This document shows positions 9,299 through 9,380 of a stretch of 11,833 nt of DNA, in pieces. The DNA is taken from IMG/VR virus record IMGVR_UViG_2778261064_000021, positions 1-11,833 of that record; one strand, given 5' to 3'. The notes under the pieces are model-generated. The model saw only the letters and a list, made by a program, of their open reading frames with translations. It ran no database searches and was not told the origin of the DNA. Within the stretch, counting starts at the first letter, position 1, and the number at the start of each line of letters is the position of its first letter. The translations under genes and the position numbers were made by a program. Source of the DNA: a virus (Duplodnaviria; Heunggongvirae; Uroviricota; Caudoviricetes).

Positions 9299-9380
9299 CG
9301 GGTCCTTTCCAGGATCTGAAACACCGGGGGTACGTGTACGCGCAATTCTTAACTGTTTATGAAAATTTTTCAGGAAAAAG
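9299..9380 (+). repeat. Left arm of an ~80-bp inverted repeat (about 90% identical to the reverse complement of 10243-10323); contains the cosN-like core of cos1
   Basis: Manual alignment: a 33-bp perfect block cgcgcaattcttaactgtttatgaaaatttttc plus flanking matches; mismatches clustered at 9333-9338. Confidence 0.8.

What the first reader, a model, noticed from the sequence alone, without database searches (positions are those of the whole stretch)
9324..9343. Mismatches between the inverted-repeat arms cluster exactly at the predicted cosN overhang
The two arms are otherwise near-identical, but copy 1 reads ggggtaCGTGTAcgcgc (9333-9338) where copy 2 (reverse complement of 10283-10288) reads ggggtaGCCATAcgcgc. 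By alignment to lambda this is where the 12-nt cohesive end sits. If both sites are cut they would give different cohesive ends, or one site is non-cleavable.
Basis: inference. Interest (0 to 1): 0.5.

Follow-up and report, generated by a model that had tools for sequence, protein, structure and literature searches.

The report
Two packaging sites, different sticky ends
A phage-parasitic island of E. coli carries two facing copies of the lambda-type DNA-packaging site whose predicted 12-base sticky ends differ in their four central bases. This is probably harmless, because near-identical cutting enzymes serve many different centres in related phages and each site supplies both of its own ends.

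Summary
Within an identical 55-nt core (9317-9371 against the reverse complement of copy 2), the only differences are four adjacent bases, 9333-9336 CGTG versus GCCA. Outside the core the arms also differ, in the R4 and cosB regions.

Alignment to phage 21 and lambda puts the block at positions 5-8 of the predicted 12-nt overhang: cos1 GGTACGTGTACG, cos2 GGTAGCCATACG.

The window is an EcCICFT073-family satellite (PICI) that encodes a full Nu1-type TerS instead of Rpp. TerS is flanked by two convergent cos sites with different cosB types: cos1 is phage-21-like and matches the island TerS, and cos2 is "B-type".

All 37 related two-cos satellites share this convergent layout. Both overhangs occur in phages of one family: L161 carries the cos1 overhang and L150 the cos2 overhang. 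Prophages of this family often sit in the same genomes as the island. Large terminase subunits at least 93% identical serve at least six different overhangs, so the centre is probably not read by the nuclease.

Both sites are therefore probably cleavable. Because they are inverted, each supplies both ends of its own product, so different ends cause no conflict.

One thing remains unexplained: the overhang alone is replaced between otherwise near-identical cos sites. No cleavage was tested.

The parts
9299..9414 (+). Left arm of the inverted repeat, cos1 (cosQ to I1), capsid-proximal site
   Evidence: the repeat finder I1. Aligns to the annotated phage 21 cos and to PhiR5_1 (A1).
9300..9306 (+). 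cosQ-like heptamer GGGTCCT of cos1
   Evidence: The GGGTCCTT anchor used to collect sites is present in every cos collected, so its conservation is partly by construction. Same position as in phage 21 and lambda.
9312..9319 (+). Box GGATCTGA at the R4 position. It is the core of the B-type R boxes of cos2, not of cos1's own cosB.
   Evidence: Read from the sequence. R4 position taken from the M81255 annotation.
9329..9340 (+). Predicted 12-nt 5' cohesive end of cos1, GGTACGTGTACG. Predicted nicks: top strand 9328|9329, bottom strand 9340|9341.
   Evidence: Right-anchored alignment to lambda/21, 15 nt before TTTATGA. The same overhang is in phage contig L161.
9333..9336 (.). Divergent block CGTG (against GCCA in cos2), overhang positions 5-8
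9356..9372 (+). I2 (IHF-site-like) TTTATGAAAATTTTTCA
   Evidence: TTTATGA was an anchor of the site search. Positions 38-41 after it were not anchored and are near-invariant. Annotated I2 in phage 21.
9378..9393 (+). R3 of cos1, phage-21 type (aagCATGTCGGtactt), bp 50-65 from the overhang start
   Evidence: Alignment to the annotated R3 of M81255. 39 of 40 identical to the cq9 prophage over 9376-9415.
9400..9414 (+). I1 (IHF-site-like) of cos1
   Evidence: Alignment to annotated phage 21 I1.
9436..9451 (+). R2 of cos1 (inverted R box, ...ACGACATc...)
   Evidence: Alignment to annotated phage 21 R2.
9479..9494 (+). R1 of cos1 (tttCATGTCGGaactg)
   Evidence: Alignment to annotated phage 21 R1.
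9517..10101 (+). terS: full-length Nu1-type small terminase, 194 aa. It has a 21-like recognition helix and a satellite-specific C-terminal half.
   Evidence: Pfam Phage_Nu1 4e-68 over 1-162 of 164. PDB lambda TerS 6hn7_B 1.5e-38 and a 54-aa TerS DNA-binding-domain chain 7lwr_A 1.6e-19. C-terminal half shared with 180-aa satellite proteins.
10129..10145 (-). R1 of cos2, B-type (GAAAGGATCTGATAA on the plus strand)
   Evidence: Inverted repeat I7. Alignment A2 to the SerU-LTIIb prophage and phage L150.
10170..10184 (-). R2 of cos2, B-type
   Evidence: Inverted repeats I7 and I15. Alignment A2.
10228..10243 (-). R3 of cos2, B-type (AGTCAGATCCGTTCTT), bp 50-65 from the overhang start
   Evidence: Alignment A2. 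Same box in L150, L161 and the STEC313 prophage.
10250..10265 (-). I2 of cos2 (TTTATGAAAATTTTTC)
10281..10292 (-). Predicted 12-nt cohesive end of cos2, GGTAGCCATACG. The divergent block GCCA is 10285-10288.
   Evidence: Identical overhang in phage L150, upstream of its Nu1, TerL and portal genes.
10315..10321 (-). cosQ-like heptamer of cos2
10207..10322 (-). Right arm of the inverted repeat, cos2, capsid-distal site. Its full cos extends inward to about 10129.
   Evidence: Alignment A2 shows homology to the phage cos from cosQ to R1, ending where the phage terS starts.

Best explanation
The finding sits in the packaging module of an EcCICFT073-family phage satellite (PICI). The module holds two complete lambda-type cos sites that point towards each other, with a Nu1-type small-terminase gene (terS) between them.

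The two sites have different cosB specificities. cos1 has phage-21-type R boxes that match the recognition helix of the island's own TerS. cos2 has 'B-type' R boxes, as in a family of lambdoid prophages (L150/STEC313 type) that often share a genome with the island. That prophage family itself comes in an A-type and a B-type TerS/cosB version. The island therefore offers one entry site for each version, plus its own TerS for cos1.

The 4-nt mismatch is the centre of the 12-nt cohesive end. Inferred: the helper large terminase (TerL) nicks both sites, guided by cosB-bound TerS and by the conserved bases next to the nicks (G-1, G1, G2, C11, C13-G14-C15), and does not read the centre. Inferred: because the sites are inverted, each packaging run starts and ends at copies of the same site. 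The two products then carry different but self-complementary ends, and the difference costs nothing. On this view the two centres are two alleles of a cohesive-end polymorphism that circulates in the helper family, not damage to one site.

Shown here: the anatomy, the homology, the conservation, the co-residence with the prophage family, and one TerL family serving many overhangs. Not shown: cleavage, which helper acts, and which site is used.
For: Position of the block. It falls at overhang positions 5-8 by alignment to the annotated phage 21 cos and across 165 collected cos sites.

Conserved positions. Over 103 distinct cos sites, G-1 and C15 never vary, C11, C13 and G14 are 96-99% conserved, and positions 3-10 vary. 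G1 and G2 were required by the site filter, which removed only two chance matches. Both island sites keep all of these bases.

Identity of the inner gene. It is a full Nu1 homologue, not Rpp. The inner protein of sister satellites is Rpp (RppC 6hlk_A, 5e-31).

Layout. All 37 two-cos loci are convergent. Where the capsid gene is in the locus and the inner ORF is a real gene, that gene follows the capsid-proximal site.

cos2. It aligns to phage L150 from cosQ to R1 and has the identical overhang.

cos1. Its overhang is identical to that of phage contig L161. The cos-terS-terL region of L161 is 95.9% identical over 2636 nt to L150 and to the STEC313 prophage.

One TerL family, many overhangs. TerL proteins 93-95% identical, or terminase regions 95-99% identical in DNA, go with GGTAGCCATACG, GGTACGTGTACG, GGTCTGGGGACG, GGTCATAGCACG, GGGCGGCAGACG and GGGCGGCGACCT.

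Co-residence. 14 of the 24 best-matching E. coli genomes for the island's cassette are among the 60 best of 5426 for the L150-type terminase region. About 0.3 would be expected by chance; clonal relatedness inflates the count.

Two versions of the prophage family. The co-resident prophages have identical TerS C-terminal halves (from about residue 95). They carry either an A-type DNA-binding domain and cosB (cq9; 50 nt from I2 through R3 identical to cos1) or a B-type one (STEC313).

Literature. EcCICFT073 has two functional cos sites (PMC6092414, PMC6739421). TerL endonuclease is not highly sequence specific and depends on TerS-cosB anchoring (PMC9026076). Lambda and N15 terminases are not cosN specific (PMC4669245).
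Against: No cleavage or end-mapping data exist for this island or for any phage with these overhangs. The nick positions rest on homology alone.

Published lambda genetics holds that the left half of cosN (bp 1-6) is under selection and that G2C lowers yield about 10-fold (PMC4669245). These overhangs differ from lambda at bp 3-6, and from each other at bp 5-6, so tolerance by this TerL clade is inferred from natural pairings, not measured.

The five co-resident prophages examined carry neither island overhang, so the actual helper is not identified.

The C-terminal (TerL-binding) half of the island TerS differs from that of the candidate helper TerS, so their partnership is unproven.

The sharpness of the overhang-only differences between otherwise near-identical cos sites is not explained by simple lack of constraint.
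Confidence: 0.65

Rival explanations
1. One of the two sites is a dead or decoy cos. The central change inactivates cleavage, so only one site yields packaged DNA, and the other is a relic or merely soaks up terminase.
For: Deleting cos2 in EcCICFT073 raised transfer and only cos1 was essential there (PMC6092414, PMC6739421). Lambda cosN left-half mutations can be deleterious (PMC4669245). Both overhangs are rare outside satellites: one phage contig was found for each.
Against: Both sites keep cosQ, every conserved nick-flanking base, I2, and a complete R3-I1-R2-R1 set. Each overhang is the native cohesive-end sequence of a phage with its own TerS and TerL (L150, L161). The CGTG/GCCA pair is kept in islands whose capsid proteins are only 62% identical to this one, and with both TerS and Rpp cassettes. 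The EcCICFT073 cos2 site did support plasmid transfer (PMC6092414).
Confidence: 0.1
2. The difference is selected. Unlike sticky ends keep the products of the two packaging routes, and of co-induced helpers and satellites, from annealing to each other or being cross-terminated, so the centre acts as a compatibility barcode.
For: Most two-cos satellites with a non-lambda overhang carry two different overhangs; only L095 has the same non-lambda overhang twice. Overhang-only replacement occurs between near-identical cos sites: 6 of 8 interior positions against 6 of 633 elsewhere; positions 6, 8, 9, 10 and 12 against none elsewhere. Several alleles coexist in one phage family.
Against: Thirteen satellites with the lambda overhang carry it on both sites, and L095 carries GGGCGGCAGACG twice, so identical ends are tolerated. 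With about 15 non-lambda alleles in circulation, random assortment alone would make most pairs differ. No benefit has been demonstrated. In the pooled comparison the interior (8.3% divergence) varies less than the R4 flank (13.9%).
Confidence: 0.15
3. The inverted repeats are substrates for inverting the terS segment (a genetic switch), and the central mismatch marks the crossover or limits recombination.
For: There are 116-nt inverted arms with a 55-nt nearly identical core around a roughly 0.8-kb segment. The R4 box of cos1 matches the R-box type of cos2, which hints at past exchange between the arms.
Against: In the loci where both the capsid gene and a real inner gene are present, the inner gene has the same orientation relative to the capsid gene, so no flipped form was seen. 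No invertase gene is adjacent. Every element of the arms is explained as a cos subsite.
Confidence: 0.03

Closest known systems
cos1/cos2 of the E. coli PICI EcCICFT073 (Fillol-Salom et al. 2018 PMC6092414; 2019 PMC6739421)
   Same: Same island family: integrase, int-alpA RNA, primase-type replicase with iterons, and lambda E-like and D-like head genes. There are two lambda-type cos sites around a small DNA-binding packaging gene. Sister loci with the same two-cos layout encode Rpp.
   Different: Here the inner gene is a full-length Nu1-type TerS, not Rpp. The EcCICFT073 cosN sequences are reported as identical to each other and to its inducing phage. Here both overhangs are non-lambda and differ from each other. 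The papers I read do not discuss the convergent orientation or what cos2 is for.
cos of phages lambda and 21 (cosQ-cosN-I2-R3-I1-R2-R1, then Nu1)
   Same: Same order and spacing of subsites. The terS start lies 188 nt after the first overhang base. The cos1 R boxes and the TerS recognition helix are of the phage 21 type.
   Different: The overhang is GGTA....TACG instead of GGGCGGCGACCT, differing from lambda at 8 positions in cos1 and 9 in cos2, including the left half (bp 3-6). A second, inverted cos with no terS of its own follows the gene.
Natural cosN variation and the lambda/N15 cohesive-end mismatch (Feiss et al. 2015, PMC4669245)
   Same: Cohesive-end sequence varies among lambda-like phages while the nick-flanking bases and cosQ stay fixed. 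Terminases are not cosN specific.
   Different: The known variation was confined to bp 7-12, with the left half thought to be constrained. Here bp 3-10 vary among phages whose terminase regions are 95-99% identical in DNA, and two alleles sit in one element.
L150/STEC313/cq9-type lambdoid prophages of E. coli (SerU-LTIIb KU052038 has the same cos)
   Same: cos2 matches their cos from cosQ to R1, and cos1 matches the cosB of the A-type version. They often share a genome with the island.
   Different: They are complete phages with TerL, portal and the rest. The co-resident copies examined have other overhangs (GGTCTGGGGACG, GGTCATAGCACG).

Membership tests
lambda-type cos site | cosQ heptamer about 20 nt upstream of the nick site, in the same orientation | tested here: met
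   GGGTCCT at 9300-9306 and at 10315-10321 (minus strand), 22 nt before the predicted overhang, against 23 nt in lambda and 21.
lambda-type cos site | cosN with conserved bases flanking two nicks 12 nt apart and partial two-fold symmetry | tested here: met
   G-1, G1, G2, C11, C13, G14 and C15 are present in both sites (G1 and G2 were imposed by the site filter). Symmetry strings.
lambda-type cos site | I2 and cosB (R3-I1-R2-R1, with R2 inverted) at fixed spacing from cosN | tested here: met
   cos1 aligned to the annotated phage 21 sites. cos2 aligned to phage L150 and SerU-LTIIb, and R-box inverted repeats I7 and I15.
lambda-type cos site | Cut by terminase to give 12-nt 5' cohesive ends | not testable with these tools
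   Needs end mapping or a cleavage assay.
EcCICFT073-type cos PICI | Integrase, int-alpA region, primase/replicase with adjacent iteron origin, about 10-12 kb | tested here: met
   Integrase-sized ORF at 1-1227, assigned from annotations of matching E. coli loci. int-alpA RNA RF02996 at 1236-1302. D5-type primase at 4274-6079. Iterons at 6078-6292.
EcCICFT073-type cos PICI | Lambda E-like capsid and D-like decoration homologues, without portal or TerL | tested here: met
   PF03864 3.8e-49 and PF02924 3.1e-16. Besides the integrase and the primase, no other ORF in the window is longer than 351 aa.
EcCICFT073-type cos PICI | Two cos sites | tested here: met
EcCICFT073-type cos PICI | Rpp protein that redirects the helper TerS | tested here: not met
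   The inner protein is a full Nu1 homologue, and the PDB search did not return RppC. Sister loci do encode Rpp. The window is therefore a TerS-bearing variant of the family.
EcCICFT073-type cos PICI | Induced and packaged by a helper phage | not testable with these tools
   Only co-residence with L150-type prophages is shown.
capsid-forming PICI (cf-PICI) | Complete capsid module (portal, protease or scaffold, connectors) plus its own TerL, with or without HNH | tested here: not met
   Only the E-like, D-like and TerS genes are present.
invertible DNA segment | Both orientations found, with an adjacent invertase | tested here: not met
   A single orientation in all informative loci and no recombinase next to the arms.

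The most novel reading that the evidence does not exclude
In this community of helper phages and satellites, the 12-nt cohesive end behaves as an exchangeable cassette. It is replaced as a unit between cos sites that are otherwise almost identical for hundreds of bases.

A possible route is annealing and ligation of unlike ends from co-injected helper and satellite DNA. The mismatched duplex would then segregate at replication, which would swap exactly the bases between the two nicks.

Several alleles would be kept by selection for end incompatibility. The island's CGTG/GCCA pair would then be a maintained incompatibility between its two packaging routes rather than drift.
Probability: 0.15. 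Interest if true: 0.7.

Novelty: new variant of a known kind. Interest (0 to 1): 0.45.

Why it matters
Two cos sites in E. coli PICIs are known, but the papers read here give no role for the second site and do not discuss its orientation.

The comparison made here suggests a general design. The capsid-proximal site matches the satellite's own TerS or Rpp. A second, inverted site often copies a helper-type cosB. In this island the two sites cover the two TerS/cosB specificities found in one co-resident prophage family. If that holds, helper range could be predicted from sequence, which is relevant to PICI-based delivery vehicles.

The data also extend the accepted picture of cosN. Phages whose terminase regions are 95-99% identical in DNA use overhangs that differ at bp 3-10, including the left half, which was thought to be constrained. 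The overhang can also change while both flanks stay fixed. That bears on how TerL recognises its nick sites and on how cohesive ends evolve.

Tried and rejected
- **Source genome.** No E. coli complete genome holds the whole window; the best place covers 57%. The island is a mosaic, so its own co-resident prophages could not be examined.
- **GenBank phage collection.** No phage there has either overhang. The hits were lambda/21-type cos sites with GGGCGGCGACCT, plus the partial SerU-LTIIb prophage.
- **Species-representative genomes.** The pattern scan found nothing.
- **'The island copies its helper's overhang.'** Rejected: five co-resident prophages carry GGTCTGGGGACG or GGTCATAGCACG, which is neither island allele.
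- **'Overhang interior is generally hypervariable.'** Only partly true. Across 459 close pairs the interior (8.3%) diverges more than cosB (4.3%) but less than the R4 flank (13.9%). The lambda overhang is very stable, at 105 of 165 sites.
- **Inversion switch.** No flipped orientation was seen.
- **L143/L147.** These carry a solitary cos. In L143 an autotransporter gene follows it, so it is not a phage.
- **Island TerS C-terminus as a pointer to the helper.** Its nearest relatives are other satellite proteins, not phage TerS.
- **Rfam and tRNA scans.** They added only the int-alpA RNA.
- **Promoter/terminator scan.** Nothing above shuffled expectation.

Full report
**1. The observation**

The window has a 116-nt inverted repeat, 9299-9414 against 10207-10322, 78% complementary. 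In a gapless alignment of the left arm with the reverse complement of the right arm, 9317-9371 is identical except for four adjacent bases. These are 9333-9336, CGTG, against GCCA (the reverse complement of 10285-10288).

The phrase 'otherwise near-identical' applies only to this 55-nt core. The arms have 25 mismatches in all, with further clusters at 9308-9316 and from 9372 onward. Four random mismatches in 55 nt would all fall within the 12-nt overhang with p = 0.0015.

**2. What the arms are**

Each arm is a complete lambda-type cos site. I aligned cos1 to the annotated phage 21 cos (M81255: R4, cosN, I2, R3, I1, R2, R1, gene 1) and to phage PhiR5_1. This gives the following:

- cosQ GGGTCCT at 9300-9306
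- a predicted 12-nt cohesive end at 9329-9340, GGTACGTGTACG
- I2 at 9356-9372
- R3 at 9378-9393, I1 at 9400-9414, R2 at 9436-9451 and R1 at 9479-9494, all of the phage 21 sequence type (CATGTCGG)
- a gene starting 188 nt after the first overhang base

That gene (9517-10101) is a full-length Nu1-type small terminase. It matches Pfam Phage_Nu1 at 4e-68 over 162 of 164 profile positions, lambda TerS 6hn7_B at 1.5e-38, and a 54-aa TerS DNA-binding-domain chain, 7lwr_A, at 1.6e-19.

cos2 lies on the minus strand. Its cosQ is at 10315-10321, its overhang at 10281-10292 (GGTAGCCATACG), its I2 at 10250-10265, and R3, R2 and R1 run inward to about 10129. Its R boxes are of another type, with core GGATCTGA.

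cos2 aligns from cosQ to R1 with the cos of the lambdoid prophage SerU-LTIIb and of phage contig L150. The homology stops exactly where the phage terS begins. The mismatch block is therefore overhang positions 5-8, the part furthest from both predicted nicks.

**3. What the element is**

The window holds the following:

- an integrase-sized ORF, assigned from annotations of matching loci
- an int-alpA RNA (Rfam RF02996)
- a D5-type primase, iterons and an SSB
- a lambda E-like capsid gene and a D-like decoration gene
- the cos-terS-cos module
- the chromosomal hpt gene, recognised from its translation

This is the EcCICFT073 family of E. coli PICIs. That family is known to carry capsid and decoration homologues and two functional cos sites, cos1 and cos2 (PMC6092414, PMC6739421). 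In EcCICFT073 the two cosN sequences are reported as identical, and the packaging protein is Rpp. Here the inner protein is a true TerS, and the two overhangs differ from lambda and from each other.

**4. The family pattern**

Pattern scans of IMG/VR and of metagenome contigs, plus E. coli genome loci, gave 165 cos sites in the first collection. They included 37 loci with two sites.

All 37 are convergent, with cosB facing inward. Where the capsid gene is in the locus and the inner ORF is a real gene, that gene follows the capsid-proximal site. The proximal cosB type tracks the type of inner gene:

- TerS of 194 aa goes with the 21-type cosB.
- Rpp of 144-153 aa goes with its own cosB type; RppC 6hlk_A matches at 5e-31.
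- A 180-aa TerS-like protein goes with a third cosB type.

The distal site often carries a phage-type cosB.

Satellites with the lambda overhang have it on both sites. Those with a non-lambda overhang mostly have two different ones; only L095 has the same one twice.

The pair GGTACGTGTACG (always proximal) and GGTAGCCATACG (always distal) recurs in islands whose capsids are only 62% identical to this one, and with either TerS or Rpp cassettes.

**5. Are both sites cleavable?**

Over 103 distinct cos sites, G-1 and C15 never vary, and C11, C13 and G14 are 96-99% conserved. Positions 3-10 vary. G1 and G2 were imposed by my filter, which removed only two chance hits. Both island sites keep all of these bases.

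Both overhangs are native to real phages:

- L150 has cos, then Nu1 (182 aa), TerL (652 aa), portal, a protease/scaffold-like protein and a D-like protein, and carries GGTAGCCATACG.
- L161 is part of a 44-kb viral contig. It has an endolysin-like gene, then cos, a B-type TerS and a TerL reading frame, and carries GGTACGTGTACG.

Their cos-terS-terL regions are 95.9% identical over 2636 nt without gaps.

The same terminase family goes with six different overhangs. TerL is 93-95% identical in protein, and the region is 95-99% identical in DNA:

| Overhang | Found in |
|---|---|
| GGTAGCCATACG | L150 |
| GGTACGTGTACG | L161 |
| GGTCTGGGGACG | STEC313, SA53-3 and E9 prophages |
| GGTCATAGCACG | cq9 and HNSQ2209 prophages |
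| GGGCGGCAGACG | L051 |
| GGGCGGCGACCT | L060 |

I infer that this TerL does not read the centre of the overhang. This fits the published view that TerL is not highly sequence specific and depends on TerS-cosB anchoring (PMC9026076), and that lambda and N15 terminases are not cosN specific (PMC4669245). It goes beyond that paper, which found natural variation only at bp 7-12 and took the left half to be constrained.

**6. Why two sites, and why the difference is harmless**

Of the 24 best-matching E. coli genomes for the island's cassette, 14 are among the 60 best of 5426 for the L150-type terminase region. About 0.3 would be expected by chance, although clonal relatives inflate the count.

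These co-resident prophages have identical TerS C-terminal halves (from about residue 95) but two alternative DNA-binding domains and cosB types. The A-type is 21-like, as in cq9; its 50 nt from I2 through R3 are identical to cos1. The B-type is as in STEC313 and resembles cos2.

The island therefore carries one site for each specificity of its likely helper family, plus its own A-type TerS.

Lambda termination is polar and needs cosQ upstream of cosN (established knowledge, summarised in PMC4669245). A run started at cos1 should therefore ignore the inverted cos2 and end at the next cos1 in the concatemer, and the reverse for cos2. Each product then has matching ends whatever the other site's sequence. 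This step is inferred, not shown.

The co-resident prophages carry neither island overhang. Matching the helper's overhang is therefore not required.

**7. What remains odd**

Some cos sites that are almost identical over about 630 aligned bases differ only in the overhang:

| Pair | Interior positions 3-10 that differ | Differences elsewhere | Fisher p |
|---|---|---|---|
| STEC313 prophage vs phage L150 | 6 of 8 | 6 of 633 | 3e-10 |
| Satellites L016 vs L151 | 4 of 8 (positions 6, 8, 9, 10), plus position 12 | none | 5e-08 |
| L009 vs L148 | 6 of 8 | 14 of 633 | 1.1e-08 |

These pairs were picked after the fact from 459 close pairs. In the pooled data the interior is not the most variable region.

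Even so, such sharp replacement of just the bases between the nicks looks like a single event rather than drift. One possibility, offered as a hypothesis only, is that unlike ends of co-injected helper and satellite DNA anneal and are ligated, and the mismatched duplex then segregates. Feiss et al. showed such segregation for a 2-of-12 mismatch (PMC4669245). Whether the alleles are kept by selection is open.

**8. Verdict**

The most likely reading is two functional, independently evolving cos sites of different TerS specificity. Their sticky ends differ in a part of the site that the nuclease does not read. I consider this a new variant of a known kind. The role of the second cos site and the cassette-like behaviour of the overhang would repay experiment.

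Noticed in passing
L153 vs L150; L016 vs L151; L009 vs L148 (cos regions): Between cos regions that are otherwise near-identical over about 630 nt, only the bases inside the 12-nt overhang differ: 6 of 8 interior positions against 6 of 633 elsewhere, and positions 6, 8, 9, 10 and 12 against none elsewhere. This looks like block replacement confined to the stretch between the nicks.
   Followed up: partly
window 9312-9319: The R4 position of cos1 carries GGATCTGA, the core of the B-type R boxes of cos2, although cos1's own cosB is 21-type. This suggests cos1 is a chimera: a left half from a B-type cos and a right half from an A-type cos.
   Followed up: no
window 9817-10098 (C-terminal half of TerS); L016, L033 inner ORFs: The C-terminal roughly 90 aa of the island TerS is 68-74% identical to the 180-aa inner proteins of other satellites, which have an unrelated N-terminal DNA-binding part. 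It is only about 36-57% identical to any phage TerS. This may be a satellite-specific TerL-binding (or other) domain with swappable DNA-binding domains.
   Followed up: partly
L095 9602-10624: In one satellite both arms are identical from cosQ through the overhang and spacer (GGGCGGCAGACG twice) and differ only in cosB. This points to gene conversion between the arms.
   Followed up: no
window 1236-1302: An int-alpA RNA (Rfam RF02996, 55 bits) lies immediately after the integrase ORF.
   Followed up: no
window 6078-6292: A dense set of direct and inverted GGTGAACAGT-type repeats lies just downstream of the primase gene. It is presumably the island's iteron replication origin.
   Followed up: no
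window 10337-10651: A 104-aa ORF with no Pfam match travels with the cos-terS-cos cassette in many E. coli genomes (matches extend to window 10664). Its function is unknown.
   Followed up: no
window 10674-10735 and 10814-10875: A 62-nt direct repeat (71% identity) lies between the end of the island genes and hpt. It may be att-related or a chromosomal repeat element.
   Followed up: no
window 9266-9296: A GC-rich hairpin (aaaggccgga / tccggccttt) followed by a T run lies directly before cosQ of cos1. It reads like an intrinsic terminator for the upstream 134-aa gene, but the consensus scan did not list it.
   Followed up: partly
L148 and L150: A satellite with the cos1-type overhang and the phage with the cos2-type overhang come from the same metagenome assembly (ERZ1643251), at coverage 54x and 78x.
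   Followed up: no
L143 821 and L147 3810: Each has a solitary B-type cos site (overhang GGTACGGGTACG) with no terS after it. In L143 an autotransporter gene follows. They look like remnants of decayed islands.
   Followed up: partly
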